Assembly: GCA_003990765.1 (NCBI GenBank)
Contig: RBNJ01000293.1
Coordinates: 1 to 33,894, forward strand
Length of the DNA: 33,894 bases
Source: Jimgerdemannia flammicorona
Taxonomy: Eukaryota
Direction of reading: 5' to 3'
Position numbers and translations under genes: made by a program. The notes under the pieces were generated by a model. That model did not search any database. It was not told the origin of the DNA and worked only from the letters and a program-made list of their open reading frames with translations. Positions within the stretch are counted from its first letter, which is position 1; each line of letters starts with the position of its first letter. Shown here piece by piece: positions 3,335 to 28,723 of this stretch.

Positions 3335-3348
3335 ACTCTCCCCTTCTT
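3335..3348 (-). other. Polypurine tract (AAGAAGGGGAGAGT)
   Basis: Purine run immediately 5' of the TG start of the 3' LTR on the minus strand. Confidence 0.9.
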
Positions 3349-7230: not shown

Positions 7231-7424
7231 TGGTTATAGGAGCTTTCCTTCTGTTGGTTCTTCTTTGAGCCAGTTCATTGACACAAGAGAAGCAATCATC
7301 AATCATTTGGGAAGAGTACATTCCAATACCATGGGGGCATCAGCCACTAGATATATATCTATCTTCAATTTTCTTATAGAATTGTTCTTTTTTGTTTATG
7401 GTTGGTTGAGCTGGGGCCTTGTTT

Positions 7425-7830
7425 GATAAGCCAAATCCTTTGGATCCTCGGATGGTAGGTAGTAGTTCAGAGACTTCCTTAACTGTCAGAGTTGACTCAA
7501 TTTTCTCAAATAGGATCTGGGCAATGCAGAAACCAATAGGGATCTTGAAGGGTGTCCAACTGTGGTTTTGGATGAGGATAATAATTTTGCCTGTATAATC
7601 TTCATCAATGACTCCTCCTTCTACTGAGAGTTCTTTCAATGCTAGACTGCTGCAACAGCATATTCTTCCAACATGTCCTTCAGGAATTTGGATACTGATT
7701 CCTATATAGACTTGCTTGACTTCTTGGTTGGAAACTATAGCTTCTTCGGCTGCATACAGGTCATATCCAGCTGCTTTTTGACTTCCTTTGGTTGGGGCCT
7801 TGGTAGTTTGCCTTAACTTGACAAAGTCTA
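7425..7830 (-). pseudogene. dut: dUTPase domain, in frame with gag and upstream of the protease
   Basis: Five trimeric dUTPase motifs: AAGYDL, (R>C)SSLA, GGVIDEDYTG, IAQI, RGSKGFG. Confidence 0.93.
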
Positions 7831-7889
7831 GTATTCTGGTGGTCAGATTGTTGAGGTAGTGTAGAGTGGTAACAGTTGCTCATGTTGCT

Positions 7890-9720: not shown

Positions 9721-9828
9721 CAGGATAAATTTTAGTTCAGAGGTTGGGCTTTATACCAACTTGTAGGAATTCGCAGAGAGGTTTGTAGTGGAGTGAGGAA
9801 GTGTCTTAAAGCAGAATTGAATTGTAAA

Positions 9829-9840
9829 CTACTACTACCA
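9829..9840 (-). other. Primer-binding site candidate (TGGTAGTAGTAG), 3 nt after the 5' LTR
   Basis: Minus strand reads ...CTTACA ACT TGGTAG...; TGG complements tRNA CCA, and TGGTAG matches initiator-Met-type PBSs. tRNA identity is inferred. Confidence 0.7.
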
Positions 9841-10201
9841 AGTTGTAAGAGGGTTGCTTTTTAGGGTAACCATTTTGTAGTTCTGGAAGGGGTTTCTGGA
9901 GGTTCTGGATATTCTGGAAGACTGTTTTCTTATGGTCAAGATCAATTTCATATGGAGTATGTCCTCTACACTTATTGATTTCAAGATTGGGTTGATGTCT
10001 CAACCAAAGTCCTTTTCTGGACTAGTTCTGGATGTTCAGGAGTTTCCATATTTCAGAAAGTTCAAGAAACTAAGACTAGCTCAGTTGAATTGGCGTATCA
10101 CTGCAGACAATACCCAATTAGGAAATTTCGTGATGGGGTTAGGAGTAGGACCTAATGGGGAGCGGATTTACTTAAGAGTAATTTGTGGGTTATTAAATAG
10201 G

Positions 10202-10340
10202 TTTATTCGCTATTCATGATATTGCTATACTAGGAGTATTGTGTGAAGGAATATTGTGGGGAAGTGCTCAGGAGTTATGTTTGGATTGTTTGAGTCTTTC
10301 AAGTCTGAGATTCTGAGATCTGGGGGAGGGGGTATTTATA
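10202..10340 (-). promoter_or_regulatory. LTR genomic-RNA TATA box (TATAAATA, 10333-10340) and poly(A) signal (AATAAA, 10202-10207)
   Basis: Canonical U3/R order, conserved in the other LTR (1752-1759 and 1627-1632). Confidence 0.65.
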
Positions 10341-10529
10341 CTAGTGAGGGGCTATCTGAACTATGCTAGATATGGATGTAGCACTAAGTGCTTTGCTGAG
10401 TCGGAATGCAGTCACGTAGTACAAGTGTGATCTGACATGTCAAGGGATCATCTGACTGCTGAGTCAGTTCACAGTCACGTCGTACAAGGCTAATCTATCT
10501 ATAATATGACTGCTAGACTATTTATAGGT

Positions 10530-11627
10530 TTAGGCACTATCTGGATAGTCTTCAATGACATCACCATCGATTGCATCATCTCTGATGAAGTAGTCGTCTA
10601 GGAATAATGGTTCGCGGATTACTTCTCCTTGTTGGCTGAGGTAGTAATACATTGGGACTTCATCTCTGTCCCACAGGATAGCATCATCTGTTTCGTATGC
10701 TGGATAAGGTGTTGGTGGGCGAAGGATGGGTATATTGTCTTCGCTTTCATTGGATTCGCTGTCTGTGTACCTTCTATAGGTTACAGCACTATGAGTCGCA
10801 GGGTTGTAGTATGCTGGCAGCTGTGGTTCATGTTGCTCGTACTCAGGTGGTGGAGTGGTTGGTTTGATCTCAAGGGTTGTCTGAAGGTACAGATTGTGTT
10901 CTCCGGTCTCTTCATTGTAATTGAAGTAATCGGGGGTAAATGCGGGTTGGTATTCATACCAGTGGTCATTGTCCCAATAAGTCTCATATGCAGTTATGAA
11001 CTGTTGTAAGTTCATCGGCAAGGTTGGCGGAGTGATCAGGGTTGGCAGAGATTCTTGGCTAGAGGTCATGTCGGTATCAGAGGGATCATTGTCTTCTGCT
11101 TCATCTTTGTTGAAGTGGATTATATCATAGACGTCCTTCATGGCATATCCAACTTGAGGCATTTGCAGGATGTGGTCGTCAGGGTGCGGGAAGGTTCTGT
11201 CTGTGGTCTGGACATATTCAAGGTACTTGTGGTTGATTTCTTGTATCATGTCATCGATTTGGCCATAGGACAGGGTAGCAACCATTTCGCTGGTAGTAAC
11301 TCAGAGGCGGAGAATAAAGGTGTTGTACTCATAGAAGAGTTCTCGATATTTGCGGGCAATGAGCTTCTGGTGTTGAGACATCTGGGTAATATCTGTATCA
11401 TGGTGGTGTTCAACTATATCTTCTAGGAGGCGGCCAATCTGGTAGTAGCTTGAGATTTGTCCGATTCGGTGGGCCTCACTAAGCATGTTCAGGGCGTTCC
11501 ATCAGGCTTCCACAAAGTAGAGGGGTGCCAGGCTATAGATATTCATGAGGGGCAGAGGGGGTGTGGCTCAGTTGACAATGGCATTCCAAATGTCAGCGTG
11601 GATACGGTTGTAGATCTCGGTGGTCAT
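10530..11627 (-). pseudogene. LTR(U3)-embedded ORF, 5' LTR copy, 365 codons (MTTEIYNRIHADIW...IEDYPDSA) with three TGA stops; unknown acidic Tyr/Pro-rich protein
   Basis: ORFs 11301-11486 and 10530-11285 are in frame with the ATG at 11627. The first TGA is CGA in the 3' LTR copy. Confidence 0.85.
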
Positions 11628-11696
11628 GTTTGTGTGTTTGGAAGTTGTGGTTATTGTTTGTTTTGGTTCTCTGATTCGACGTGTCTCGGTGCTCAG

Positions 11697-11802
11697 TATA
11701 TATACATTTGGTCCTGATTGGTAAGGTTCCGTTTGTGTAGATCTTGTGTTCCATGACTTTGTATTGACTCAGCTTTGTGCACTGTGACTTCAGTTTGACT
11801 CA
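11697..11802 (-). promoter_or_regulatory. Putative promoter of the LTR ORF: TATATATA (11697-11704), CCAAT (11717-11721), two TGACTCA sites (11765, 11796)
   Basis: Motifs lie 70-175 bp upstream of the ATG; equivalents occur at ~3116-3221 in the other LTR. Confidence 0.55.
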
Positions 11803-11916
11803 GCTTTGTGATCAAGCAGATGATTTCCAGATTTGTTCGGAGGTCACATGTGATTTCGGTGGCTTTGTTCAGAGGGTGATGTGTAATTTCGGTGGCTTGG
11901 AGGTTGTGTGCTTACA

Positions 11917-12078
11917 CTATACCCTCTCCTGACATGCTGCCAGTTGAAGGCCCTAGGTCCACCCAACCTAGGATGTGCATCGGCTCACTTGCTGGTTGAC
12001 ATCTCCTTAATATCTTTCTCCAATAAACGATTTGAAAGTGTGTTATAAAGTGTGTGTAATGTGAATTGTAGCAGAGAG
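11917..12078 (-). mobile_element. LINE 5' tip (5' UTR plus start of ORF1), probably of copy A
   Basis: tgctgccagttgaaggccctag.tcca...aacctag matches 28554-28590 of LINE C. Right boundary approximate. Confidence 0.8.
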
Positions 12079-12079
12079 A

Positions 12080-14600
12080 GATGTTCTGCATCTTCAACAA
12101 CCCCTTGACCACCCAGGGTGGGAAATCTAAATGATATTCTACATACCATAGCTTTGGCATTCAATACATATTCAGCACCATCACTCTGCCAGCTAGGGAC
12201 ATATGTCAGCCTTCCCATCGCAGCAGAACATTTCTCCACTCTAGAAATTTATGGTCTCACCATGCCCAGGGAAGTAGAGATCCAAACACTGAGAAGTAGA
12301 TCTCAAATAACACACTAGTTCACCAGCCGATACCACCATCCCAATGACATCACCACCAACAATACCAGCACCCAGCACCAGAGTCTCACACTTGTGCCAG
12401 TTTAGCTTAGTGCCAGAACCCCTCTCATATCATTCCACAGACCTCTGTAACTCCCCCACATCTGCCAAGTGACCACCATATTATCAGCAAAGGCCCCCAC
12501 CTTCCAATTAATCCCTAAAATGTCCAAGCTCCCAATCTGATGCCAAATTCTGTCCAGTAGAGGCTCCAGAGAAAGGGCATACAATATGGGTGACAAGGGA
12601 TTCCCTTATAGTACCCCATGTCCCAGGGGGAAGGTCATCCCCCTGTGGCCATTAATGATCAATGCCACCTGACTGTCCTCCAAGAGGCCAATCAATGATC
12701 TTTGGAACCCTGGGGGGATTCCAATCCATTTCAGTACTCCCTCTAGCCATATTCTCTGCACTCTATCATAAGCCTTCTCCTGATCCAGAAACACCAATCT
12801 GCTATCCACCCCTATTACCTGGGTACCTTCAATCACTCCATGAACCTAAGCTATTCTATCTCGAATCAACTGACCACTGACAAACCCATGCTGCTCCACA
12901 CCAAGCATCTACTGAGTGATTCCTTGCAGCCTCATTACTAAGATCTTCATCACCAGTTTGTGGTCTATGTCAAGAAGAATAATTGGCCACCAATTCATCC
13001 AGTCCTCTCACCTCCCCTTATTCTTGTAGAGTAAGGAGACTAATCCTAAGTACTGTCCCCCAATCCAGGCACCAGACCAAAGAACTCCATCACACATAGC
13101 AGTCATTTCCTCTAGCACCACACCCACTCCAGCCATCTTCTGCCAAAAATCCCAGAGAAGTCTATCCTCTCCTGGGGCTATCCCCTTACTTGTTGTGGCC
13201 ACAACCCTGCAAATTTCCTCGCCACTCACTGGGTCCCCCAACACCCCAAGTCCTATCGCAGGGTCTGGGTGCCAATCCCCCAGCTGCCTTTCAATGTCCA
13301 GAGTATCCATTTCTCCTTCCTCCTCACTCTATAGATTCTCCCACTGGGTTCTTAATAGGCCCAGAATCACTGGAGACCCCACCACCAACTTGCCATTTGC
13401 ATCCAGGACCCCCTCCCACCTTTGCTTTGTTTGTCATGCTTGTAACAACTGTGACAAAAATCTAGTAGGCCTCTCCCCCTCCTCAAGCCTCTGCCACCAC
13501 AGGTGGGCCACCATTCCCTGCAACTTCACCTCCTTCTCTCTTTGTAATACTCCCTTAAGCTTGTCTACCTCCTGCCAGATTCTCACAATATGCCAATCAG
13601 TCACATCCTCATCCTCCAGCACACCTGCCCATCTCTCTATAAGTGCTGCCAGACACCATGAGGCCCACAGTACCCTCCGCCTTCACTGGGTATACTTTTC
13701 TTTCCCTGCCTCCCTCCAATACCTCTGAGCAGACATCTTCAACCTTCTCCAGCAGTCCCCAATCTCCAGGCCTTATTCCCACCACCTACCAATATTTCCA
13801 ACCACTTCTGTTTTCCAACTCTCCCACAATACCCTATCCTCCAACAAGGAAGAATTTAGCCACCAATGTCCAGGCCCATCCTCATTTCCCCCAAACCTCC
13901 CCCCTCCAAGCAGCCCCCAGTGATCAGACCATGGACACCATACTACTTCCAGCACTGATCAGACATCTGCTCCCCAACACTCCGCCATCAGAACCCAGTC
14001 AATCCTGGAGCCCAGCCCTGCTGTCCAGTGAGTGTACACCCACTGATTGGCCCAAAAAAGTCTTCCTGAGTCTACCAAAGAACATAACCTCTCTGTCTCC
14101 AACCAGTCCCCCAACCCACCACTTTTGCCCTGCACACCTTACCTGCCATCTGTTCTATCCATCTCCTTATCCCATACTATGTTGAAGTCACCCCCCATAC
14201 AGTCCAGCCCAACTCCTCTCAATACACCAGCCTCCTTCAATCCACGAATCCAATCCACTCTCTCCCCTCTCTCAGCTGGGCAGTAGCAAGACCCAACTGT
14301 CAACGAGCCCCATCCAGGCCTTTTTCACATTCCCCACACCACTCAAGACCCCCAATATCCAATGTCCTCAATGTCCCCCATTCCTTTCCGAACAAGAATA
14401 CACACTTTCCCCCTCTATACTGCTGCGCCCCCCCATTTCTTAGTCCAATCCTGTAAGTCCACATCTGCCTCATAATGAATATCCTGTAACAAGAAGAGGT
14501 CCACATCCAGTCTCTTAAGCCATCTAAATATATACCTCCTCCTAGTTGCCCCCCGTAACCTATTAACATTCAACAAGAATATCCTAGTTGTACTGTTCAT
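12080..14600 (-). pseudogene. LINE B ORF2: APE endonuclease plus reverse transcriptase (stops and frameshifts)
   Basis: MNSTTRIFLLNVNRLR, LLQDIH, GGDFN, WSDHW, APGED, DQEKAYDRV, LSPILY, GAFADN. Confidence 0.92.
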
Positions 14601-14631
14601 ATTGAAAAAATGTTGCAATAGCAACCCCAGC

Positions 14632-16539
14632 CTAGTACTCCATGCTCATCTCATCTCCAGCCAGATTCAAGCACCATTCAGCTTCCAAGTTACCCTCCAC
14701 ATTAGCCTGAGCATCCAGTGCCTCCAAGATTTCCTGACATTCCACCCCATCCACTACCTCCATGTTGGACTGGTAGTCTAAGCAGACTGCACACCACTTC
14801 TCCAGTTCCTTCCTCAAGTTCCACAAGAAAAGTGCCCTGTCACTCGCAATCTTCTGAAGTTCCTCCTCATGCCGATCATCAACTTGATATTCAACTGACT
14901 TCAGGAGGACAGCCAAGATCTCATTCCTCATCTTCCTCGGCACCTCCTCCTCCCATAAGATCTCCTCCCAATGCCTCTCTTCCATTACCCTGAAATCCTC
15001 ACCCCCCAGCTCTTCAGCTGCTACCCCTTCCAGAGTCTTCCACATCCACTTCTCCTCATCCACTGCCTCTGCTGCACCCTGAGCGATTCATCCCCCATCC
15101 ACCTTGGGGTCCATCAGCACACTCCTCCTCACTGACTCATCTCACTCCTCATCTGGCATATCCAGTAACTCCTCCTCCTCCTCAGCTCCACCTGGGACAC
15201 TATACTGAGGGTGCACACCCACCCATTTCTGCATCTGCCTCCAAATCGCCTTCTCTCCTCCCCCACTCCAATCCAAGCCCCACCCTGGGCCATTTCTCCC
15301 CCCTCTGCCCAGGCACTCTCCTGCAACCCTGCAACTCTCTCCCCTGAGCTTCCACCAGCCCTACCCCCACCCAACCTCACCAGCAGCTCCTTCTGGATCT
15401 TTCACCCCTGCATCTTCTCCCAAGCCCTCTTCTCCATCCAGACCCTCTTCCCATCCACCTCCCCTACCACTGTCCTGGCCTCAAACTCCTTCCAGACCAA
15501 TCTCCTCCTTGCAACCGCCCCTTCCAGATCCTCCAGAGCCTCCAACAAGTCCTCCTCCTCCTCCTGGGTCCTCTTCACCCTCATGATCTTACACTCCACT
15601 GGACCCCACCTCAGTGCCGCTGGCCAGTCCCTTGACTTCTCCATATTCTCCTTCCCAGCCAGCCTCACCCTGACATCGATGTCACCAGTCCAAAGCTCCA
15701 TGCCCTCCCAGACCTTGAAACCAACATCCACAATCTCTCCATACTCCTTGATCACCTCCACAACCAACTCCCTGGTCCTCTCCTTCGACACGGTAGAGAG
15801 ATTCAACACTGTCAACTGCACCACTCGGGGGTCCCAGCATATGCACCGGGCCATGGGGACCACAACTCCACCAACTGTCACCCCCTTCTCCATGGCCATC
15901 AACAAGGTGTCCTCCTCCTCAAACCCCACCTCAACCCCTTCCTTTCTTCTTAAAAACTTCACCAACACTGCTCCCTTAACCTCCTGCACCACTAGTCCTA
16001 AGATTATCCTCGCTGTCACCACCAAGCCCCAGAAGCCATAGTGACTGCAAATTCTGACCTCGACTTCTTGAGTAACAGGGCCGACACCATGCCTGTCACT
16101 CTATCTGCCAGGTTCCTGGGCCTCATGTCCACTCCCAGTCCTGAATTGCCAACCACTATCACATTTGAATTTTTTGCCAGATCTCTAGTCACAGCCCCAT
16201 CAACAGTTACATCTCCATCTCTAGCCTCTACTCCCACTCCTTCCCTGCCATCTGAGACTCCCCTCCCTATCCCCCAGTAGCAGCTGTCGGTGCCTTCCCC
16301 AGATCCAGCCAATTGTCAAGGCCTGAGGCCATCTTCTCCATTCTGACCTTGTCAGCAAAGGTCGACCTCTCTCCACCTCTCTGCCTCAGCCTGCCCCTCT
16401 CTCCACCACCAGGACCTCGGCTAGCTATTGAGGCCCCTGGCATCTCCAAACCATCTCCCCTCCTCCCCACCTACTACCAGCCAAAGGTGCTGGCACCCCC
16501 CTGACCAGTACGCTCACCAGTTCAATCATTGCCATCCAT
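14632..16539 (-). pseudogene. LINE B ORF1 (RRM-like core, acidic C-terminus), broken
   Basis: ORF pieces 16267-16470, 16016-16312, 15402-16025 and 14632-15063 are homologous to LINE C ORF1 (e.g. VDVGFKVWEG vs VDIGFQVWEG). Confidence 0.8.
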
Positions 16540-16610
16540 GTTAATAGTCACTTGATACCGAAAATGTAGTAAAAGTGTTGTCTGAGTTCTTGTGTCACCT
16601 GAATGTTACT

Positions 16611-17911
16611 AGTGCAAAGTCCACTAAAAGAGCTTATATTGGATGTCTGTACATGTTGGAACTCAACATTTGCAATGATCTAGCATATGCTGGAGTTTGC
16701 TATGGTATGCATCCTTTTTTTCTTCAGTCGGCTGAAGTAACTTGTTTCAGATAATTGAAGATTTATTTTAAAAAAAACAAAAAAAGCCAATAGATTCAAT
16801 AGTGGCTGCCGATAAGGAAATATAGGCCAAGGCTCTAGGTGAAAGCAAGTGGGATGTACTTAGGAATATTGTTGGAGTTTTGGAAGTAAGTGGTGATTAC
16901 TCTGGCTCTACACTCATTTTGTCAGCCTCTACACTCATTTTGTCTGCCTCCATACAATGCAACACCTCACCACATATAACTGCCAGTGTTTCGACAATTG
17001 TACGAAGGATATAGTCAAACAAATGACCCTGACAATAAGCTTGGTAATACCAGTATACAACCTTCTAATTGACTGGTTAGAGGATAAGCTCGAGGACAGG
17101 CTGGAGGGTTGTGGTGATTTATGATTGAGCCCGGATCAGAGAGATACCATAGAGGTTGCTCTTAGTAAGCTCAGAAAGTACTACTCCCAAATAGATACTG
17201 CTGTATACTCAATCAGTACAGGTATGTCAATGTTAGTGTGTGGCTATTGCCCCTTCCAAAACAGAGAAACCCTCACAAAAACTCACTCTCTCCTCTCCTT
17301 TGAACAGTGCTGGACCCATGCTTAAAGCTATAATACTATAAAGATCAGAGCTGGGAGCAGCACTTCATTGAGAGAACCAAGCAGACCATAATCAAAGTGT
17401 ACTGGAAAAACTATGCGCCACTGCAAGGTTCCGGCCGAAGTTCAGATGAATATGTCAAGGGATTCCTCCTATCTCACATTTACTTTAGCAGAAAGAGGAA
17501 GAGGGAGCTGTCAGTGGAAGAGCTGCCATTAATAGATGAACTTACTATTTACCTTGCCAGTGATCACATAATCCTGCTGGAGAGCACAGAGGTGCTCAAC
17601 TGGTGGAAGGTGGGTTGTCAGGTAGGCATTGGGCCAATTTAACCCACCAATCTAACCACTACTCTATCCACTACTCTATCTACCACTCTACCCACCGCTC
17701 TACCCACTGGGGTATGCAGCTGCATCAAATAGACTTCCCTAGCCTGTGTGATATAGCTCGGGACTATCTGGCGATTCCTGCCTCCAGCGCTCCTGTCAAG
17801 CAGATGTTCTCAGGTGGGGTAGACCTCATTGCCCCAAAGAGGTGTGTGCTGAATGCTAAGATAATCTGGGTATATATGTGTCTGAAGTCTTGGTGTGGCT
17901 CAGGCTGCTAA
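16611..17911 (+). pseudogene. hAT-superfamily transposase, 3' half, with four introns; 5' half displaced by LINE B
   Basis: LILDVCTCWNST (DVxTRWNST), KLRKYY, VLDP(R>C)LK, LNWWK..FPSL..IARDYLAIPASSAPV(KQ<ER)MFS dimerisation domain. Donors at 16705, 16886, 17222, 17610; acceptors ending 16986, 17307, 17719. Confidence 0.92.
17657..17708 (+). repeat. ~12-bp tandem repeat (ccactactctat-like, ~4 copies) in a hAT intron
   Basis: Directly visible. Confidence 0.7.
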
Positions 17912-18069
17912 AATTTGGTGAGTCCTGGGGGTTCACGGATAAGTTGGTTGGCCTTGTGGAATATTTAATACCTTTCAAAAATAATAAAAAGGCAAAAAAC
18001 CCTAATGACTCGGCCTGGAGTTTGTGGCCCAAGTGGGCAGTGGTCAGCAGGGTTGGTGGTGGTGGTGGA

Positions 18070-18695
18070 GGGAGCATGCAGTGTTTACAGCCCTCCACCA
18101 GCAGCAAGGGGCAGCCCCAAGCTGTCAGTGTCTGGGTCGGTGGGTGGGTCAGTGGGCAGGTTGGTGGAGAGAGCATATAAAATTTGTGGCCCTCCACTGA
18201 CAGCAAGGGGCAGCTCCAAGCTACAAATGTCCCAGTCAGGGGGGTTGGCAGAGGGAGTATGCAAAACTTGCGGCCCTTCACCAGCAGCAAGGGACAGCCC
18301 CAAGCTATCAGCATCTGGGTCAGTGGGTGGGATCAGTTGGCGGGATTGGTGGGCACGAGGTCGGTAGAGGGAGTGTGTAAAATTTGTGACCCTCTGCTGG
18401 CAGCAAGGGGCAGCCCCAAGCTGCAAGTATCCAGGATAGGTGAGGTAGATGGAGAGAGCATGCAAAATTTGTGGCCCTCTGCCAACAGCAAGAGGCAGCC
18501 CCAAGCTGTCAGCACCCAGGTCAGTGGGCAGGGTTGGTGGGCATGGGATCAGCAAGAGAGCATGCAAAGTTTGTGGCCCTCTACTAGTAGTAAGGGGCAG
18601 CTCCAAGCTACAAGTATCTGGAACGAGCGGGGCAGGTGGAGGGAGTGCACAAAATTTGCAGTCCTCTGCCAGCAGCATAGGGGCAGCCCTAGGCC
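18070..18695. repeat. Seven-unit GC-rich array with core GCAAGGGGCAGCCCCAAGCT and alternating spacing
   Basis: Cores at 18104, 18203, 18287, 18403, 18488, 18590, 18675; spacings 99, 84, 116, 85, 102, 85. Confidence 0.9.
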
Positions 18696-18944
18696 ACTAA
18701 AGAGTCCAGGGCAGAGGGTGTTTCTGGTGGTCAGAGGGTACTTTTAGTAGTCGGAGGGTGTTTCCGGCAGTCAAAGTCCACCACAGATTTGGGCTCTATC
18801 ACCAGTTCGGGTCTCATGGGCACCCTGGCTCTGTGCCACAGTGCCACACCAGCGGTACTGCAGAGCAGGACTAAGAGGCCAGTAGGGCCCTGCATAATGG
18901 CTAAGCTAGGGCTACAGAAGAGGTGCCCAGCCCAACCCCCACAT

Positions 18945-19053
18945 AAGACTGCCTAACCTACACAAAATGACTGCCTAACTCTCATGAAAGACTGCCTATC
19001 CCTTGCAAAAGACTGCCTATCCCTCATGAAAGATTGCCTAACCCTCACAAAAA
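18945..19053. repeat. ~22-bp tandem repeat (aagactgccta.ccctca...) x5, immediately downstream of the dioxygenase-like stop codon
   Basis: gactgccta/gattgccta recurs at a ~22-bp period. Confidence 0.85.
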
Positions 19054-20840
19054 CTACTCCATCTGCTGGTCCCAGGCCTTGATGAGCCTATTATCTATTA
19101 TGAGTATGACAACTATTGTGTCTGAGCTCTCCTTGAAGGTGATGGTGCCATAGCGGTCATCTGATTGGAAGAGGACAGCCATGTTGGCTGTAAATGGGAC
19201 CCCAAAACCATAGGTGAGGTTGTACCAGACTCTGCCACTATCCTCTCAAGTTGGGCCCTTCCTTTCTAGGATGTAAAACATTATCAGGGTGATATTGTTG
19301 TCTGTATGTGTGGGCAGAGAAAGGTTGTGCCCAACATATCCTGATGTGACACAAGTGTATGGTTGGGTGAACCCTTGGCCCAGAACCTCATACTGCCAGG
19401 CTGTGCTGGTGGATGCCTGCCCTTGGTCCAGCCCTGGGAGCCCCAGCTTAGAAATCTGCCAAAATAGACAGCAACTAGTTAGTCCTTTTTACATGCAGGG
19501 GGACAGAAACCCCTCAGGCTGCAGAAATCCCCTGGGCTGCAGCACCCCAAAAAAGCAGAGCTCACCTCATATGGCATGCTAAATTGTACCAAGAATGTAC
19601 ATATAGCTGTGCCAAGATCACCACTAAGCTGGCCTGCCATACACTCTACCAATCTGCTCAAAGAACCCCAGATTATAGCTACCATCACTATACAGGTTGT
19701 GTCATGCTCGTGTACAGTTTGCTCTTTGACAGTACTTCTAAAGTTCTAATAGGGGTACAGAATCTTGTACATCCCTGGATTTGTATCAAAAAAAAGTATG
19801 TCAGCAAAGAGTGTGATTTATCTGGAGAAGAGTAAAAAAAAGAGAGATGAGTGTGGGGGATTTCGAAACTCTGGAACCCACTCTTCGCCAGTATTGCAGT
19901 ATACCCAATTCCCATCCAAACTCCCCCTCCTTGCTTTTTTTGCCCCCTCTTTTCTGCTACCTAGTATTTGATGCAGTCCTTGCAAATCTTGTTAATGTAG
20001 CAGCAAAGCTCATCACTGTAGAGGTTCCTTACCATCATCACAACCACCTCTCTATGTTCGTTAATAAAGATATGGTTCTCTTTGTTGTTGGTTACTCCTG
20101 CTGGCCAATAGATCCCTTAGTTGAGAATGATTAGCTCTGATTCGAATGTAGACCCCCAAGCCTTGATGATAATGCTGATACTGCTCATACTGAACATCTT
20201 GCCCTTGAATTTCTCTATTTGATCAGACACCAGACATGGTTGAACTTGGATAACTTTGAACTCTCCTTTCTAATAGAACTGAGCCCTGATCTGAGAGACT
20301 GAGATAAGTGTATGGATGGGTTGTGTGCAGACAGGTTGTATGCAGGCAAGTTACATGTGGGTGGGTTGTGTGCAGGTGTGGGTGTTTTTTAGGGGAGACC
20401 ACGTAAAAAATGAAATTAAATAAAACACAGAGATGGGTATTTCAGAAAAAGAGCGTGAGTGAGTGAGTGAGTGAGTGAGCTACATACCAATGAGTTGTAT
20501 GCCAACGAGTTGTACAAGATTGCTTACAAAGGTCTGCTTCTGTTTCTTTTGAGACCTCCACTATGTGATGTATTGACTCAATAGCTCAGCCACCAAAGGT
20601 ATACCCTGCAATGTCCTCCAACCTTTCATCTTGACCAGATGTTATGAATAAAGTTGGCAGATCTTGCCATAGAGCTGTGGACCCTAAGAAGAGCACAAAG
20701 TGAATCAGGTCATGCTGGGGGAATTTAAACAAAAGTAGCAGCAGAAAAGAGCAATCTACATCTACTACTGACTGCTCCAAAAAGGCTACTGCATACATAG
20801 CTATGAGGTCTGTGAATTCTGAGGTCCAAAGGTCTACCAT
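19054..20840 (-). pseudogene. Spliced 2OG-Fe(II) dioxygenase-like gene, TET/JBP-like; 5' boundary uncertain
   Basis: Exons 20528-20683, 19882-20290, 19566-19774 and 19054-19455 join in frame via GT-AG introns. Product has KRG..GGGVWMGIGY, LGLPGL, PT-HTD-NN (19300-19308) and GFGVPFTANMAVLFQSDDR(Y<H)GT (19150-19152), and ends IKAWDQQME*. Confidence 0.68.
20455..20478. repeat. (GTGA)6 microsatellite inside a predicted intron
   Basis: Directly visible. Confidence 0.9.
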
Positions 20841-21143
20841 GAGTTATTGCTAGAATTCACCCTCACCCCCACCATTGCCACTATCACCCTTTTGGCTCTT
20901 GATGAGCAGCTTGTATGCTGTCCATATGAGAAAAAATCTAACATTATCAGCAGAGAGTGTGTTTCCACCTCAAATACTCTCTCTTTTGATAATCATTGCA
21001 GGGTGAAAAATGAGTAAACTAGACCAATGTATGAATTAAGGGCTGCTATTCTGTTTGCTTATGAATATAGCAGGAAAGAACAAAGAAAAAGAATAAAGAA
21101 AAGAGAGGGAACAAAGGAAAGGGTGATGTCACCAAAGATTTCA

Positions 21144-21348
21144 ATCTGGATGGGTCAATCTGGATGGATCATCTGGATGGGTCAATCTGGATGGATCATC
21201 CAGATGAATCAATCCAGATAGATCAATCCAGATCAATCCAGATCAATCTGGATCAGATCACAAGACCAATCTGAGTTGATTCGAATCCATCACATGATGA
21301 ACTTGAATCAAATCTCATCTGGATCAACTCTATTTGTTTGGAGCACTA
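21144..21348. repeat. Subterminal ATCTGGAT/ATCCAGAT repeats and hAT-type terminal inverted repeat end
   Basis: About ten copies of the motif in both orientations, followed by tttggagcacta (reverse complement TAGTGCTCCAAA). Confidence 0.8.
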
Positions 21349-21592
21349 GTTGTAAGATTTGATAGATAATCTTCCAAGTCTCTTTTCTACAACTCATACT
21401 CTCTCTATCTCAGGTTGATTTGTTATATCTATTGCAGAGCAGTAGAAGAGAGACAATAGTGATTTATCAGTATTGAATTAGTATTTTCTTTACTTTTTTA
21501 TAGTTTCTAATACTTCTAGTTATATCTAGAGTATATTCATTTTAGTATAGTACCTTCTTTCTTTTACTATCATCAACAAGGTATCATCTCAG

Positions 21593-21912
21593 TAGTACTC
21601 CCAATAAATCAAATCAAAGGTCCAATTCAATTTGATTCAAATCAAATTGAAGGCTAATTTAATTTGAGGTCCAATTCAAACTCTATTTTTCAAAATGTAA
21701 TAACTCAATAAATATATATTTAAATTCAATAATCTTTAGCTTATTAGATTTCTCTTATATAAGAAAATCTAACAAACTAAAGATCATTAAATTTAAACAT
21801 ATATTTATCAAGTTATTATATTTCAAAAAATAGGGTTTAAATTAGACCCTTAATTTAATTCAAACTTAATTCAAATTGAAAAATTCCTAATTTAATTTGT
21901 TTGGAAGTACTA
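21593..21912. mobile_element. hAT-type foldback MITE 1 (320 bp)
   Basis: TIRs tagtactcccaa / ttggaagtacta; 8-bp TSD catctcag / tatctcaa (two transitions); internal palindrome centred ~21757. Confidence 0.85.
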
Positions 21913-22173
21913 TATCTCAATATATTATAGGTTATATAGAAAGTTAGTTGACCTTAAGTATTAAGTACTAGTATAGATTATATGTAAGTTCTTGGTATCT
22001 ATATATAGTAAAGTTCTCTAAGCTTTAGTAAACTTCTCAGTGAACATAGTTCTAACATAAGTAACTGTTTTTTAGGTAAAGTTGAGATGAGAGAGGATAT
22101 GGCTATTATAGATAAGAGAAAGAGTAATTATAGTAAACTAGTTAAGTACTAGACTAGAGATAGTTATTAGAGC

Positions 22174-22556
22174 TAGTGCTCCCAATGATTTGAATCGAAT
22201 CAAGGGTCCAATTCAATTCTAATTCAATTTGAAGTTTGATTCAAACCTTAATTTTCAAAATATAATAACTAGACAAAAACTCATCTAAATTTAACATATT
22301 TTAGCTTGTTAGATTTACCATATTAATGTGATTCCAACAAGCTAAAGTACATTAGATTTGGATGAGTTTATACTGAGTTATTACATTTTGAAAATTAGGG
22401 TTTGAATTAGCCCCTCAATTCAATTTGACTTTTGATTTGATTTGACTTTTGATTTGATTTGAATTGATTTGAATTGAAAAATCCCCAATTCGATTTGACT
22501 TGTTTAACTTTCAATTCAATTTAATTCAAATTAATTTGACTTATTTGGGAGCACTA
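22174..22556. mobile_element. hAT-type foldback MITE 2 (383 bp)
   Basis: Perfect TIRs tagtgctcccaa / ttgggagcacta; perfect 8-bp TSD attagagc (22166-22173 and 22557-22564); internal palindrome centred ~22324. Confidence 0.95.
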
Positions 22557-22902
22557 ATTAGAGCTAGAGTAGATACTATATTGGTAGGGTCTTCTGATTG
22601 GTACTAAGTAGTTAGATGATAGATATTACTCTTAGTAGCTTTTGATATACTATAGTATTACTAGGAGATTATTAAGAGATCCAAGACTATCTGAATTAGA
22701 TATCTTAACTATATTTAACTAAAACTAAGAGCTGATATAATAATATAATCAAGGTCTATAAGCTTAAATAGTAGAGTATTAGAGATCTCCTCTTATCTTA
22801 TATATAAGTTATCTACTTATCTCATTTTTTTTTTTTTATAGTCACTTGAACTCGTCCTATATTATACCCATCTATTCTATATAAATACAATAAACCCACC
22901 CC

Positions 22903-25900
22903 CTATCCAATCCCCCTAGGGGGGCCCCTCCCCCCTATCCCTTCTCGATGAAACACCACTCTATCGAATACAATTCCCACCCTCCCACTACTCTATTTGT
23001 ATATCCTTGCCACCAAACCATACCACCACCCCTCTGAGGGACCCCAACCTATCTACCATCCAGTCAACAGATCCCCCAACAGCTCCTCCCACCTTACAAC
23101 CTTCTCCTGTAGGCTCATCTGCTGCCTCTCCTTAAATACAAATAGCCAATATCCCACCAGACCCACCCAAACTGCTAACACCCACCCAACAGTGAGTCAA
23201 CTATCACCCACCCCCCCCACCAGCCGAGATCTCAAGTTCTCCCAGCAATCTCCTTCACCCACTGGCCTGTGCTCCACACCCAGTCTATTCTCTATTTCAA
23301 CCCAAAAGTCCCCCAAAACCTCACACTCCCCCAGCCAATGTTCTGACATCTGCACCAAACCCCCAACTTGCCCTACATTGTAACACTCCTCACAATCAAA
23401 ACATCCACCATCCACCAGATGCCCAGTGTGGAAATTCAGCATGATGTTCCTCTGTAGCATTCACCACTATACTATCCAGAACTTGGGGGGAAGCCACTGC
23501 TATACCTCAGCACTCCAAGACCAGATACCAGCCCAGTCCCACTCCTTACTGATTCTGACTACCTGCCAACCACTTGGCCAAAGGTCTTGGCCAAGACCCT
23601 GCTGACACTCTATTCTATCTCCAATATCAAAAGTAACAAGTGGAGCACCCCCCAGAAGCAGTCTATTTCATCACCATATATGAGGACCCCACAATACCTC
23701 CCCCTCATTGCCTTGCTAGCACAGACCAATTCTGTATACTCCATCAACCACTCTCCATCAAAAGCCCTTAAATCGCAGCCACCAAATTCCATTGAGCCCT
23801 ACCAAAGAGAGTAGATCTCCTGAGGACCCTTGGGAGGAGGTTCTCATCTCCCACACCTTCTGCATCAGAAGTACCCAACCCCCTCCCTGTAGTTCAGCCA
23901 CTCTCTTCAGCCACCAGGCTCGCAAGCAGTACAACCTCTTAGAGAAATCCACAAGACCAAGACCTCCCCTGTCCACTGGTGTCGCAAGAGTATTCCAACT
24001 GATCTGGGACCTCCTCTCTGCCCAAATCCAATCCCTAGCCACCTTCATCAGCCTCTTCACCACCCAAGCTGGGAAGTCTAGATAATATACCACATACCAT
24101 AGCTTGGGAAACCAGTATATATTCAGAATTGATACCCGCTCTGCTAGAGAGATATGGCAGCCTCCCCAATCTCGAAGGGCCTCCCCCCAAATAGCCACCC
24201 TACTCTCCCACCACACTCATGGTAAGACAGAACCATATACAGAGAGGAAGATGCCCAGATACCATACTATCTTACCAGTAGAGACAATTGTTCCAATAAT
24301 GTCCCCACCCACCAGTCCATTCCCTAGCACCATAGTCTCACACTTATGCCAGTTGAGCTTTACCTCAGAGTGAACCTCATACCATTCCACTGTCTCTTGA
24401 AGTGCCTCGACATCTACCACAGACCCAAGGCCAACCACTATATCATCTGCAAAGGCCCCCACCTTCCACACTATACCATAGATAGAGAGCCCCACTACCT
24501 TCTGGCAAATCCTATCCATTAATGGTTTCAATGAGAGAGCATAAAGAATAGGGGACAAGGGGTCCCCCTGAGGAACCCCTCTTCTCAAGGTAAACACCTG
24601 ACCATGGTGACTATTACACAACAGTGCTGCCTGACTGCCCTTAAGCAGATTCACCATAGAAGCCCGAAATCCAGGAGGAACACCAATATGGTCCAACACC
24701 TTGCCCAGCCAAACCTACCAGACCTGGTCATAGGCCTTCTCCTGATCCAAAAAGACCAACCTCCCATCCAGGCTGCAAGCCTGGGCCCCTTCAATAATAC
24801 CATGCACCCAAGCAGTCCCATCTCTAATAAGCCTACCTCCAACAAAGCCCTGCTGCTCCTCCCCCAGCACCTGTTGGGCAACCTTCTGCAGTCTTGCGAC
24901 AACCACCTTAGTTACCATCTTCCTGTCTATGTCCAAAAGCATGATTGGCTGCCAGTTCTTCCAGTCTTCTCTCCTCCCCTTGTCTTTGTACAATAAAACC
25001 ACTAGCCCAAGGTCCTGCTCTCCAACCCATTCACCACTCTAAAGAATATGATTATAGAGAGCAGTTATCTCCCCCAGAATGCTGGAGACCTTGACCATCT
25101 TCTTCCAGAAGTCCCATGGTAGTCTATCCTCCCCTGGTACTGTTCCAGTTTTAGTTGCTGCAAGGACACTCTGGACTTCCTCACCTCGCACTGGCAAGGC
25201 CAAGTCATCCAGTCCAGCCACTTGCAGCGGCCTCCATTCTCCTAATGCATCTTCAATAGTCACCTCATCAGTACCCCCTTCATCCTCACTCCACAAACCC
25301 TACCATCTCTCTTTCAAAACCCCTAGGATTTGTTGCATGCCATGTACTATGTCTCCATCAGCATTGAGAACTCCATCCCACCAATGTCTCACCCTCCTAG
25401 CATTGAGCAGATGGGATAAATATCTAGTAGGCTGCTCACCCTCCTCAAGCTCCTACCACTATAGCCTAGCAGCCATACCTCGTATATGCACCTCCTCCTC
25501 TTCTCTCAGAACCTGTTGCAGTTCTAATATCTCCAATTTAATCTGTACTAACCTCTAATCCTCCACCCCATCAGAAGTAAGCAAACCTACCCAATCCATT
25601 TGCAATCTCCTCAGCCTGCTGGAAGTATACCTTGTGTGCTTCCTCCTTCATCTCCCAGCTTCTCTCCCAGTCTCTCTCCAATAGACCCTCGCAGCCTCTT
25701 TCAATCTCATCTACTGGACACCCACTGACAAACCCTCACACCTCTAGTAAGAAACTTTCACCTGAATGTCCTCTACCCACAAATCCCACAACCCCTTCTC
25801 AGGTAGTAGGGAGGAGTTGAGGCACCAATGTCCGGGTCTATCTCTACTCTCCCCAAACTGCCCCTGTCCCAATAGTCCCCAGTAATCAGACTATGGGCAC

Positions 25901-26562
25901 CATTCTACCTCCAATACCTTCTAGACATCAGACCCCCAGCATTCCATCATCAGAATCCAGTCAATCCTTATACCCAAGCCATTCACCCAATGCATATAGA
26001 TCCTGGAGTTGCTCCATTGTGTTCTACCCATATCCCCTAAGGAGCTCAGCCTCTCTACCTTCTCCCATACATCCAGGCCTCCACTTCTCCCTCCTGCACT
26101 CCTCCCACCATCAGTGTGGTCCAGACACTGATCCCGAACCATATTAAAGTCTCCCCCAATCATATCGACCCCTTCTGCCAAGAGAACATCCTCCTCCAGC
26201 AGCTCCTCAATCCAAGCAATCCTCTCACCTCTAATCGCAGGGCAGTAGTAAGAGCCAACCCTCACCGACTCCCACCCTGGCCACTGCCAATCTCCTCAGA
26301 CCAAATGGTCACCCCAGCTTCTGATTCCCTTCAAGTCACCTCTATCCTTCCTCATCAGAATTACCACTTTTCCAAACCAAGCAGTAGTCCTGCCCCATTC
26401 CTTAGTCCACTTCACCTGATTATCCTCATCCTCATACTGAACATCCTGTAGTAAAAAGAGATCAGCCTCCAATCCCTTGAGCCAAGTAAAAATGTTCTTA
26501 CACTATCCAGACCCCCTCAGCCCATTCACATTCAAAGAGAAAATATTAGTTATACTGTTCAT
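22903..26562 (-). pseudogene. LINE C ORF2 (~1220 codons): APE endonuclease, RT, C-terminal Cys/His region
   Basis: MNSITNIFSLNVNGLRG, GGDFN, RIDWI, KNWQPIMLLDIDRK, DQEKAYD, GVPQGDPLSPILY, AFADD, CFDC..HWLGEC. Confidence 0.95.
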
Positions 26563-26593
26563 AAGGAATAATGCTAAAAAGTGATCCCATCCT

Positions 26594-28633
26594 CTATAAG
26601 TCCACATTCAGCTCCTCCTGCACCAAGTCCAATTCACATTCAGCAGCTAGTTCCCTTTCCCCAGCTTCCCATACCTCCAATTCTCCCAGAAGTTCTACTA
26701 TTGCCTCATCTTCCCTCTCCTCAAATTCCTCTCGATACTCCAGACAGGCCTCCCTCCAGAGCTGCAAACCATGCCACTCAGCCCAGCAGTATGTTGCCTG
26801 CTCACTTGCAGCCACCACCAGCTCTGCCTTCCTCACCTCATTGACCTCATATCTCTCCTCCTTTAAGAGGATCACAAGAATCTCCCCCCTCAGTGCCTCC
26901 ACTACTCCCTCACCATGCAGAATCTGCTCCCAGTATCCCTCAGGCATAACCCACAGGTCCACTTCTTCCAATGTATCAGCCACAAGGTTATCCATCACCT
27001 TGCTCATCCACAGCAAGTTTTCTACCTCCTTCCCTCCAGGAGTCCCTGGCTGTCCCGCATCCAACATCATGGTATCAGCACCCATACTGGCAGCCTCATC
27101 CCACTTCTCCTCAGGGACATCCACCAGCTCATCCTCATCAGCTGCCACCACCTGGCTCCCTTTTGCCACATCAGGGATCCCAAAACATACTCGCTGGGCC
27201 CCCTTCATTAGCATATCCTCTGATGTCCTTCTCTTTACAGCCAGGCCCCTCCTGATCAGAGGGGGGGGGGTGGAGTTCAATTCTGGCTCCCAGACCTCAA
27301 AGGTGCCATTGGCAAAAGAGTCCTTGCTCAGTACCTTCCCATCTCCTTCCTTGCCTACCTCCACCTCCCCTATCCCTTTACTAGTCCAGACACTGGCCTC
27401 AACACCCCCAGACACCTCAGCCCCAACTGCCTTCTTCTTTGCCTTAACTGTCATACTTGCCAGTAACTCCCTCTGCCTCCTGCACCCCTGCACCCGCTCC
27501 CACTGCCCCTTATCCATGTGAATATGCTTCCCCTCCATAACCTCCAGATGTGTCAACTCCTCATATATCTTCCAGGCCCTTGCCCTCCTCTCCACAGCTC
27601 CACTCATCTCCTCCAGCACCTCTAACAAGTCCTCCTCCTTCTCCTCACTCCTCTTCACCCTTGATACCTTACAGATGAATGTCCTCCACATCAGCACAGA
27701 AGGCCAGTTACTTGCCTTCCCCATGACCTCTTTTCCTGCCAGCCAAATCTTAACATCAATGTTACTTGTCCTGATTGTCGTCCCCTCCCACACCTGAAAG
27801 CCAATATCCACCACATTACTATACTCAATCATCACCTCCTCCACCCTCTTCCTAGTCTCCTCCTTGGTCACCATGAGCACCCCCTTCACCAGAAGCTATA
27901 CCACTCTGGAGTCCCATCGCAAGCACTGCACTATAGGGACCACCACCTCCCCAACTATGACTCCAGTCTTCAGTACCTCATCTAGTGGACTGGCCTCCTC
28001 AAAGCCCACCTCAACTCCCTCCAGACCCTTCAAGAACTTCACTGAGGCCACCCCAGCCACCTGCTTCGAGATAAGCCCCAGAACCATCCTTGCCATCACT
28101 GCCAAGCCCCAGAAGCACAAGGTCACTGCAAACTCCGAGATCAACTTCTTGAGCAACAGGGTCACCACCAGCCCCATTATACTATCCACTAGGTCCCCCT
28201 TCCACATCGGGAACCCCTGTCCCCCCTGGCCATTAGCCATCACATCTTCTTTTTTTTCCTGATTCTCTATCACACTCCCATCAACAGTCACACCCCCAGC
28301 CACAGCACCTCCAGCCCCTACACCTACACTCCCAGCTAGAGCACTGCCCCCTCTCTTAAGGCTTATCTTGCCCTTCCCCTCAATAGCACTAGCCCTATTA
28401 CCAGCCGGCCACCCACTCTTCTTAACCTTGTCTGTGAAGCTTGAGAGACCAGATCTTCCCTCATTGCCACCTGACACCAGTCCCCCTCTAGAGCCTTCTC
28501 CATTCTTCGGTCCTCTGAAGGCTCCCATCCCTAGACCATAACCCCTTCCCACCTGCTGCCAGTTGAAGGCCCTAGATCCATTCAACCTAGTATGCACACC
28601 TGTATGGTCATTGCTCTCTATGTTGCTAGTCAT
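26594..28633 (-). pseudogene. LINE C ORF1 (~680 codons, one internal TAG at 27896)
   Basis: ORFs 27896-28633 and 26594-27889 are in the same frame, lie upstream of ORF2 and are homologous to LINE B ORF1. Confidence 0.88.
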
Positions 28634-28723
28634 CTTTTACCAAAAAACATTATTGAAAGTATTGTCTGAGTCTTGTGTCACCTGAATGTTACTGGTAAAA
28701 GGTGCTTGTCTACTTATCTCATT

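What the first reader, a model, noticed from the sequence alone, without database searches (positions are those of the whole stretch)
19054..20840. Hidden spliced 2OG-Fe(II) dioxygenase pseudogene missed by the ORF track
Seen: removing introns 20291-20527, 19775-19881 and 19456-19565 gives one frame: ...NHIFINEHREVVVMMVRNLYSDEL..KRGQKKQGGGVWMGIGY..MPYE|ISKLGLPGL..GYVGHNLSLPTHTDNNITLIMFYI..GRVWYNLTYGFGVPFTANMAVLFQSDDRYGTITF..TIVVILIIDNRLIKAWDQQME*. All internal stops are one transition from Gln, Arg or Trp codons. The distal Tyr (TAT) is one C>T from His. Inference: HxD, a distal HGT about 50 residues later and the alternating beta-strand pattern fit TET/JBP. Caveat: the usual 2OG-binding Arg after the distal His is not evident, so this may be a divergent or non-catalytic subfamily.
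Basis: partly seen in the sequence, partly recalled or inferred. Interest (0 to 1): 0.75.

Follow-up and report, generated by a model that had tools for sequence, protein, structure and literature searches.

The report
hAT transposon carrying dead TET-like gene
This is a mutation-wrecked copy of a spliced gene for a divergent TET/JBP-like DNA-base oxidase that rides inside a very abundant cut-and-paste (hAT) transposon of a fungus, probably as a counter-measure to DNA-methylation silencing; such cargo is known from other fungi, but this enzyme lineage and host group are not described.

Summary
The hidden gene is real. It is not a host pseudogene but the second gene of a 6.3-6.5 kb hAT transposon (15-bp TIR, 8-bp TSD in 12 of 12 complete copies; at least 680 left ends in the genome). 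Thirty copies give five exons and 479 codons, with His393-x-Asp395 and His445 (Tyr in this copy, His in 24 of 30). A model built with homologues matches TET2, CMD1, NgTET1 and CcTet best (Z 17.8-13.5), and the catalytic exons were under purifying selection between source lineages. The protein is a distant sister of Kojima's (2025) PE-type fungal TET/JBP, but has HxD, not HxE. Its whole clade lacks the usual 2OG-binding Arg, as do most PE types, so the chemistry is open. TET-bearing hATs are published (rust hAT7, PU type, 7-bp TSD). New here: a canonical hAT, a probably non-Dikarya host, this clade, and a second hAT family with a 29%-identical paralogue. Inserted copies show no protection from CpG decay. 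The scan has already reported this element on many other pieces of this genome.

The parts
16627..17911 (+). 3' half of the multi-intron hAT transposase gene (decayed); the first 1872 bp of the element (left TIR, BED finger, first two catalytic Asp motifs) are missing from the window, where a LINE end abuts at about 16626
   Evidence: PF05699 Dimer_Tnp_hAT E 6.3e-9; 84% match to element consensus positions 1873-3111; element consensus
18050..18720 (.). GC-rich 84-116 bp imperfect tandem repeats between the two convergent genes; part of the element
   Evidence: families D1/D5; shared by other copies
18930..19052 (.). 21-bp tandem repeats just past the dioxygenase stop codon
   Evidence: families D12/D16
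19045..19455 (-). exon 5 of the TET/JBP-like gene: DSBH core with H393 (19308-19306), D395 (19302-19300), distal H445 (19152-19150, decayed to TAT here), tail Arg466; true stop TGA 19047-19045; premature stops at 19248-46 and 19056-54
19456..19565 (-). intron 4 (110 nt; 96-131 nt in other copies)
   Evidence: low-confidence loop in model; absent from P0003
19566..19774 (-). exon 4: helices packing on the DSBH; premature stop at 19748-46
19775..19881 (-). intron 3 (107 nt, phase 1; same position in metagenomic homologue L120)
19882..20290 (-). exon 3: N-terminal strands, helix and basic Gly-rich loop of the TET-like domain; premature stops at 20272-70, 20119-17, 19963-61
20291..20527 (-). intron 2 (237 nt; 234-387 nt in other copies)
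   Evidence: P0003 aligns across it
20528..20683 (-). exon 2 (frame ending ...WRRSQKEQKQAF in the consensus); last 20 codons match P0003
   Evidence: acceptor AG in 30 of 30, donor GT in 23 and AT in 7 of 30; needed for an open consensus frame
20760..20996 (-). exon 1 with putative ATG at 20996 (tentative: no homologue, no selection signal)
21140..21348 (-). subterminal ATCCGG-type repeats and right terminal inverted repeat (TAGTGCTCC..., ends at 21348); flanking 8-mer 21349-21356 is the presumed TSD half
   Evidence: homology to other copies stops at 21348-21352; termini and TSDs of complete copies

Best explanation
The stretch is a dead copy of a five-exon cargo gene in an autonomous hAT DNA transposon. 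In active source elements the gene made an Fe(II)-dependent DSBH dioxygenase of the TET/JBP group, a distant sister of the PE type. SHOWN: element anatomy, gene structure, triad, TET-like fold (modelled), purifying selection on the catalytic exons between source lineages, heavy CpG-directed decay of inserted copies, host DNMT1/DIM-2-like genes. INFERRED: the enzyme binds duplex DNA, flips 5-methylcytosine into the site and oxidises its methyl group, which lifts or weakens methylation silencing of the element long enough for the transposase to be expressed and the element to jump. The benefit would fall on expressed source copies at the time of transposition; inserted copies such as this one are later methylated and destroyed by C-to-T deamination.
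For: TIR and 8-bp TSD in 12 of 12 complete copies among 20 loci fetched (8 perfect, 3 at 7/8, 1 at 6/8). 680 exact left-end and 355 exact distal-His-motif matches, 0 for reversed controls. Open 479-codon consensus from 30 copies; 1 of 30 (L010) is stop-free. Shared non-deamination variants in exons 3-5: 10 of 13 synonymous against 3.1 expected (p 7e-5); private ones 9 of 38 against 7.9. Profile of 46 PE-like ascomycete proteins scores the consensus 48.4 bits, best of 500 shuffles 2.9, aligning HTD with HxE and HHGT with YHGT. Model pLDDT 72, pTM 0.76; all 19 listed Foldseek rows at E<=0.001 are CcTet, TET2, NgTET1 or CMD1; VIA-align top four of 48,161 are TET2 17.8, CMD1 17.0, NgTET1 16.6, CcTet 13.5, then ALKBH1 12.8. 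Atlas neighbours of P0003: PF20515 cluster 0.96 (15% of members), Tet_JBP cluster 0.91 (16%). C-to-T at CpG 38.5%, CpA 8.7%, CpC 5.4%, CpT 1.4%; DNMT1/DIM-2-like loci L111, L114. A second hAT family holds a 29%-identical paralogue with the triad. Same arrangement and hypothesis published for Dikarya (PMC12730594).
Against: No Arg or Lys in the last core strand where TET2 R1896, NgTET1 R289 and CcTet R385 hold 2OG (R385A kills CcTet; PMC11040006, PMC7854593 passages); the His+5 position that reads cytosine N4 (Asn/Asp in TET2, NgTET1, CMD1) is Val here, with a conserved Asx one residue earlier, and the stacking aromatic two residues before the tail Arg is Asp (mapping by residue spacing only). 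No Pfam TET model hits the protein or the genome (the genome controls were silent too) and no PDB sequence hit. The good model depends on an alignment in which 46 of 58 rows are the ascomycete proteins I added; the single-sequence model failed (pLDDT 30). Atlas recognition for P0003 was 2142, under the 2300 mark. Inserted copies are not protected: CpG deamination 0.41-0.49 at non-CpG deamination near 0.05, against 0.46 for 30 copies of a LINE. No transposon-borne PU or PE enzyme has been assayed (PMC12730594).
Confidence: 0.55

Rival explanations
1. Same fold and same anti-silencing role, but non-canonical chemistry: the enzyme does not use 2OG in the TET way and instead uses another co-substrate (ascorbate, as CMD1 does) or makes another base (a 5mC adduct, hydroxymethyluracil, or oxidised 6mA).
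For: The whole clade lacks the 2OG Arg. CMD1 is tied for best structural match (Z 17.0 against 17.8) and cannot use 2OG because no basic residue holds its C5 carboxyl (PMC7854593 passage). CcTet, which also lacks the Asx at His+5, acts on 6mA (PMC11040006 passage). Thr at distal His+2 and Thr at tail Arg-4 sit where CMD1 has Thr399 and Ser414 (spacing only).
Against: Most published PE types also lack the Arg (Table S1 parts 9 and 12), so another residue may serve across the group; 2OG-binding residues are subfamily-specific (PMC7854593). The decay spectrum points to 5mC as the host mark.
Confidence: 0.2
2. Non-catalytic or weakly catalytic TET fold that binds methylated element DNA and shields it from readers or methyltransferases.
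For: Missing Arg and missing stacking aromatic; no lasting protection of copies.
Against: His-x-Asp and distal His are kept in family 1, family 2, P0002, P0003 and the P0009 cluster at about 30-50% identity (one member, P0005, has Asn for Asp); dead enzymes usually lose metal ligands first (general knowledge).
Confidence: 0.1
3. A 2OG-Fe(II) dioxygenase of another kind (AlkB-like RNA/DNA demethylase or protein hydroxylase) whose TET likeness comes from the alignment used for modelling.
For: AlkB and prolyl hydroxylase structures follow at Z 11-12.8; sequence identity to all solved structures is 6-14%; link to the PE-like family is E 9.8e-4 in the unbiased search.
Against: TET-family chains lead both fold searches by a clear margin and cover residues 5-413; the Atlas result on P0003 used no alignment; motif order matches published PE types.
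Confidence: 0.1
4. A host gene captured by chance and carried passively (Pack-type capture), of no use to the element.
For: Private mutations in inserted copies are neutral; introns are retained.
Against: Purifying selection between source lineages; two hAT families carry 29%-identical paralogues in opposite orientations; the gene is present in all complete copies examined.
Confidence: 0.05

Closest known systems
TET+ hAT7 transposons of Puccinia (Kojima 2025, PMC12730594, section 3.1.2)
   Same: hAT transposase plus a TET/JBP dioxygenase gene inside one TIR element; repeat-rich fungal genome with CpG hypermutation.
   Different: hAT7 makes 7-bp TSDs, the two examples seen start with CA, carries PU-type enzymes and, in three families described, has the TET gene upstream of the transposase in the same orientation. 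Here: 8-bp TSD, TAG termini, gene downstream and convergent (family 1) or downstream and tandem (family 2), PE-related enzyme, host probably outside Dikarya.
PE-type TET/JBP dioxygenases of Pezizomycetes and Agaricales transposons (same paper, section 3.4, Table S1)
   Same: Motif order and spacing: short strands with xxVxxVxR, GY/GxS loop, GGxF/WY..YG, DxHGT, and the TxxRL tail without the canonical Arg; invisible to Pfam Tet_JBP.
   Different: HxD instead of the hallmark HxE; lacks the RxED-G and PPxG..NYxR motifs; PE types are reported on Helitron, IS3EU, Zisupton, EnSpm and Plavaka, not on hAT; long branch to the PE-like ascomycete proteins.
CMD1 of Chlamydomonas (PDB 7cy4; PMC7854593)
   Same: TET fold (Z 17.0 over 255 residues), HxD...H with about 50 residues between, no basic residue for the 2OG C5 carboxyl.
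   Different: 12% identity; CMD1 keeps Asp at His+5, Phe at Arg-2 and uses Trp358; ascorbate use not testable here.
CcTet of Coprinopsis / AG-type enzymes of Kyakuja and Zisupton elements (PDB 7vpn, 8jkk; PMC11040006)
   Same: Best Foldseek match (E 4e-7); fungal, transposon-associated, no Asx at His+5.
   Different: CcTet has the 2OG Arg385 and Phe391; 7-9% identity; other transposon superfamily.
Human TET2 and Naegleria NgTET1 (PDB 9hxv, 4nm6, 5cg8)
   Same: Highest structural Z (17.8, 16.6); facial triad.
   Different: Host genes, 10-13% identity, both 2OG arginines present.

Membership tests
hAT superfamily | short TIRs | tested here: met
   15-bp TIR at both ends of 12 complete copies
hAT superfamily | 8-bp target-site duplication | tested here: met
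   8 of 12 perfect, 3 at 7/8, 1 at 6/8
hAT superfamily | transposase with BED finger, DDE and C-terminal dimerisation domain | tested here: met
   PF05699 E 6.3e-9; BED-like Cys/His and TIDTW, TTDNA, ERVFS motifs read by eye in the consensus frames (motif names recalled); a full spliced transposase was not built
hAT7 (Kojima 2025) | 7-bp TSD and PU-type enzyme | tested here: not met
   TSD is 8 bp; enzyme motifs match PE better than the PU rows seen
TET/JBP family | DSBH fold most like TET structures | tested here: met
   the model leans on added homologues
TET/JBP family | HxD/E...H facial triad | tested here: met
   H393 25 of 30, D395 30 of 30, H445 24 of 30 copies; kept in homologues; clustering in 3D not measured (no coordinates available)
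TET/JBP family | Arg in the last core strand binding 2OG | tested here: not met
   no Arg/Lys there in family 1, family 2, P0002, P0003, P0009; also absent or variable in published PE and PU rows
TET/JBP family | match to Pfam Tet_JBP PF12851 or 2OG-FeII_Oxy_6 PF20515 | tested here: inconclusive
   no direct hit; 1 of 46 PE-like homologues hits PF20515 at E 0.0018; Atlas neighbours of P0003 carry both families on 15-16% of members
TET/JBP family | oxidation of 5mC or thymine in DNA | not testable with these tools
   needs an assay
PE type (Kojima 2025) | HxE in place of HxD | tested here: not met
   Asp in 30 of 30 copies and in the clade
PE type (Kojima 2025) | sequence homology over the whole domain | tested here: met
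   48.4 bits against a PE-like profile, shuffles at most 2.9; hhalign 97.6% on 48 columns; the profile family was called PE-like by eye against Table S1, not by a computed test
CMD1-like ascorbate-using enzymes | ascorbate-binding residues (Arg244, His249, Thr337, Trp358, Thr399, Ser414) and 5gmC formation | tested here: inconclusive
   by spacing only: Thr at two positions, no Trp (passages); no residue-level superposition possible

The most novel reading that the evidence does not exclude
An undescribed clade of transposon-borne TET-fold enzymes of non-Dikarya fungi, which has lost the 2OG-binding Arg and the usual base-reading residues, writes a new DNA base (CMD1-like use of another co-substrate on 5mC, or action on 6mA or thymine) and helped drive a hAT expansion to roughly a thousand copies in a heavily CpG-methylated genome.
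Probability: 0.15. Interest if true: 0.8.

Novelty: new variant of a known kind. Interest (0 to 1): 0.4.

Why it matters
It extends transposon-encoded TET/JBP enzymes from rusts, mushrooms and truffles to a fungus that is probably outside Dikarya and to canonical 8-bp-TSD hATs, with two families and at least 680 insertions of one of them. That copy number runs against the suggestion (PMC12730594, discussion) that such enzymes suit low-copy elements. A stop-free natural copy exists (L010), so the untested anti-silencing idea and the chemistry of Arg-less PE-related enzymes can be assayed directly. If the enzyme is a plain 5mC oxidase it is a compact new TET; if it is not, it may reveal a new DNA modification. 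The principle itself is published, and this window's copy is one dead member among hundreds.

Tried and rejected
Pfam on window exons, on L010 and on six homologues: nothing above noise. PF12851 and PF20515 against the genome: 0 matches, controls silent too, so uninformative. Word-indexed protein search with the L010 read-through: 0 of 2994 candidates; with alignment A2: 8 short ENA-type fragments only. PDB sequence search: 0 hits single, 1 chance hit (EF-P, E 1.7) with profile. Single-sequence AlphaFold: pLDDT 30, not used. No Atlas result exists for this protein itself; only its homologue P0003 was scored. RNA runs: no RNA holder listed, so expression and junctions are untested by reads. Viral contigs with P0003: 10 candidate stretches, none confirmed; alignment A4 was too diverse for locus searches. 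Rfam 16000-23000: 0. Tree of 17 proteins: no outgroup and long branches, says nothing on PE membership. Self-protection test against a LINE family: no protection seen; the LINE consensus probably undercounts CpG and the copies were chosen by likeness to this window. RIP as the mutational process: rejected in favour of CpG methylation decay (CpG 38.5%, CpA 8.7%). No transposase on the two metagenomic contigs (2.9-3.7 kb), so their mobility is unknown. Iyer et al. 2014 (PNAS) was not held and not read. Paper searches found no report of TET-bearing transposons outside Dikarya; subscription papers and Repbase were not searchable.

Full report
1. Observation. The window is a stack of eukaryotic transposons with strong CpG loss (CpG observed/expected 0.14). 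The stated ends are wrong: from ATG 20840 the join is 1333 nt and goes out of frame at the first intron. A search of the own genome (G000, 231 Mb) with the gene gave 1226 candidates, 40 scored, full-length ones at 84-87% identity; 30 loci were aligned. A CpG-aware consensus gives five exons (20996-20760, 20683-20528, 20290-19882, 19774-19566, 19455-19045) and an open 479-codon frame; the window copy is 75% identical with 11 internal stops and no frameshift; 1 of 30 copies (L010) has no stop. ATG 20840 is ACG in the consensus and TAG 19056-54 is CAG. Its key prediction holds: the codon at 19152-19150 is His in 24 of 30 copies, and HxD is His in 25 and Asp in 30 of 30.

2. Splice model. Splice dinucleotides are conserved apart from CpG decay at donors 1 and 2, and intron lengths vary without regard to frame. 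A search of 1.84 billion representatives with the L010 read-through returned 8 proteins. P0003 (374 aa) aligns at 31% from residue 118 to 447 straight across junctions 2, 3 and 4. A metagenomic homologue at 28-37% identity has introns at those same three places (L120). In the folded model the long low-confidence segments include exactly the two retained introns (138-170, 254-279). Exon 1 and most of exon 2 have no homologue and no selection signal and stay tentative. No RNA holder was listed.

3. Context. Homology between copies stops at window 21348 and runs left through a hAT dimerisation domain (PF05699, E 6.3e-9). Of 20 longer loci, 12 held both ends: 6298-6531 bp, a 15-bp TIR and an 8-bp TSD (8 perfect, 3 at 7/8, 1 at 6/8). 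The transposase gene is on the + strand with several introns; the dioxygenase gene is convergent. The window copy lacks the first 1872 bp, cut by a LINE. Exact patterns give 680 left ends and 355 distal-His motifs, both lower bounds, controls 0. Searching G000 with P0003 showed a second group of copies (170 matches); the consensus of 14 of them is 60% identical to P0003 and 29% to family 1, keeps the triad, and ends at a terminus of the same type. In L162 and L165 a different hAT transposase (43-60% identical to family 1 pieces) lies about 3 kb upstream on the same strand, and L162, L165 and L166 are collinear from there into the gene; only 2 of the 20 loci in that call showed this transposase, the rest being truncated or interrupted. 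The other end of family 2 was not found.

4. What the protein is. Pfam and PDB sequence searches are blank. The weakest hit (P0008, E 9.8e-4) belongs to a family of 51 unannotated ascomycete proteins whose motifs match, by eye, the PE-type TET/JBP rows of Kojima's Table S1. A profile of 46 of them scores the consensus at 48.4 bits against at most 2.9 for 500 shuffles and aligns the metal ligands; hhalign gives 97.6% on one 48-column block; 1 of the 46 hits PF20515 at E 0.0018. The Atlas places P0003 next to clusters carrying PF20515 (0.96; 15% of members) and Tet_JBP (0.91; 16%), with a recognition value below its mark. AlphaFold failed on the single sequence (pLDDT 30) and gave pLDDT 72, pTM 0.76 with a 58-row alignment, 46 rows of which are those ascomycete proteins. 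Foldseek found 23 matches at E<=0.001; all 19 listed are CcTet, TET2, NgTET1 or CMD1. VIA-align ranks TET2 (Z 17.8, rmsd 3.5, 249 aligned), CMD1 (17.0, 3.6, 255), NgTET1 (16.6, 3.7, 224) and CcTet (13.5, 4.8, 229) above ALKBH1 (12.8). The last core strand has no Arg or Lys in family 1, family 2, P0002, P0003 or P0009; most published PE rows also end G-L-x-x-V-T-x-x-R-L without it. By spacing, the tail Arg466 would match the base-reading Arg418 of CMD1, while the His+5 Asx and the stacking aromatic are not in place (inference from passages).

5. Selection and decay. Leaving out CpG sites and all C-to-T/G-to-A changes, variants shared by 3 or more copies in exons 3-5 are synonymous in 10 of 13 cases (3.1 expected, p 7e-5), private ones in 9 of 38 (7.9 expected); exons 1-2 show 1 of 5 and 2 of 10. 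With deamination-type changes included the ratio is near 1, because recurrent deamination swamps the signal. So source lineages kept the catalytic part and inserted copies decay neutrally. C-to-T rates are 38.5% at CpG, 8.7% at CpA, 5.4% at CpC and 1.4% at CpT; CpG o/e is 0.97 in the consensus, 0.70 in L010 and 0.07 in the window copy. The genome has two DNMT1/DIM-2-like and one or two DNMT2-like loci (labels by eye). At equal non-CpG deamination the element's copies lose CpG as fast as 30 copies of a LINE: no lasting protection. The host has fungal-type chitin synthases and an intron-bearing methylmalonyl-CoA mutase, which PMC8085122 reports as lost in Dikarya and Mucorales; I infer a non-Dikarya fungus and did not place it further.

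6. Mechanism. Most likely (0.55) the source element expresses, besides its transposase, an Fe(II) dioxygenase that oxidises 5mC in DNA and so eases methylation silencing when the element moves. Rivals: unusual co-substrate or base (0.2), non-catalytic binder (0.1), another 2OG family (0.1), passive capture (0.05). Fold and triad are shown by modelling and conservation; substrate, co-substrate and in vivo role are inferred.

7. Known systems. Kojima 2025 (PMC12730594; main text parts 1-5 of 7 read, figure-legend passages, Table S1 parts 9 and 12 and search rows; the other 18 supplement parts were not read and could hold closer relatives) describes TET-bearing elements of 11 lineages in Pucciniomycetes, Agaricomycetes and Pezizomycetes, hAT7 among them; 'Mucoro' and 'Glomero' do not occur in its text. 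A 2026 review (PMC13297926, passages) still lists them for Basidiomycota and Pezizomycetes only and as uncharacterised. PMC7854593, PMC11040006, PMC8085122 and PMC5751038 were seen as passages; Iyer 2014 was not seen. The element is a hAT (tests met), not a hAT7; the enzyme works like a TET/JBP and is homologous to the PE type but fails its HxE hallmark and the canonical Arg test. Searches found no paper on such elements outside Dikarya.

8. Verdict. New variant of a known kind, interest 0.4. Earlier notes of this scan (116 notes in this genome fit 'TET dioxygenase') reach the same reading on other copies; I saw them after forming mine and they are not independent support. One gave the CMD1 lead, which I checked only at the level of residue spacing.

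Noticed in passing
G000 loci L081-L110, L152-L171 (e.g. L162, L165, L166): A second hAT family carries a 29%-identical paralogue in tandem behind its transposase, without introns 3 and 4 in the consensus frame, ending at a terminus of the same TAGTGCTC type; older and more diverged copies.
   Followed up: partly
proteins P0008, P0031-P0080: 51 unannotated Xylariales-type proteins on long contigs with PE-type TET motifs (HxE...HGT); may be a domesticated, conserved TET-like gene in these ascomycetes. Gene context not examined.
   Followed up: partly
L120:733-1956, L121: Homologue in an AT-rich (34% GC) metagenomic eukaryote with the same intron positions, CpG o/e 1.2, a 28-member cluster; L120 ends in ATCAAATC-type repeats like hAT subtermini, no transposase on the short contigs.
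   Followed up: partly
window 1268-11900: Ty3/Gypsy element with long (about 2.1 kb) LTR-like repeats, dUTPase (7340-7879), RNase H and a chromodomain, inserted in a LINE; the repeats hold a 256-codon acidic frame (10530-11300) without Pfam match.
   Followed up: no
window 11900-16626 and 22950-28640: Two minus-strand LINE copies about 72% alike; the first interrupts the hAT. The second family gave 9172 candidates in the genome.
   Followed up: partly
window 21600-22535: AT-rich inverted arms built of ATTTG/TTCAA repeats (222-nt arms, 70% complementary): MITE-like element next to the hAT end.
   Followed up: no
L158 and L157 (oriented coordinates 3969-4571 and 1843-2266): Short 0.4-0.6 kb elements with the same TAGTGCTC termini and 8-bp TSDs: non-autonomous derivatives mobilised by these hATs.
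   Followed up: no
window 22831-23193 and 33533-33894: About 360 bp repeated in inverted orientation at 90-94%, the second copy running to the contig end and adjoining a dUTPase-like fragment.
   Followed up: no
30 element copies: Deamination is context-biased: ACG 53%, CCG/GCG 37%, TCG 28%; CpA 8.7% and CpC 5.4% well above CpT 1.4%, suggesting some non-CpG methylation.
   Followed up: partly
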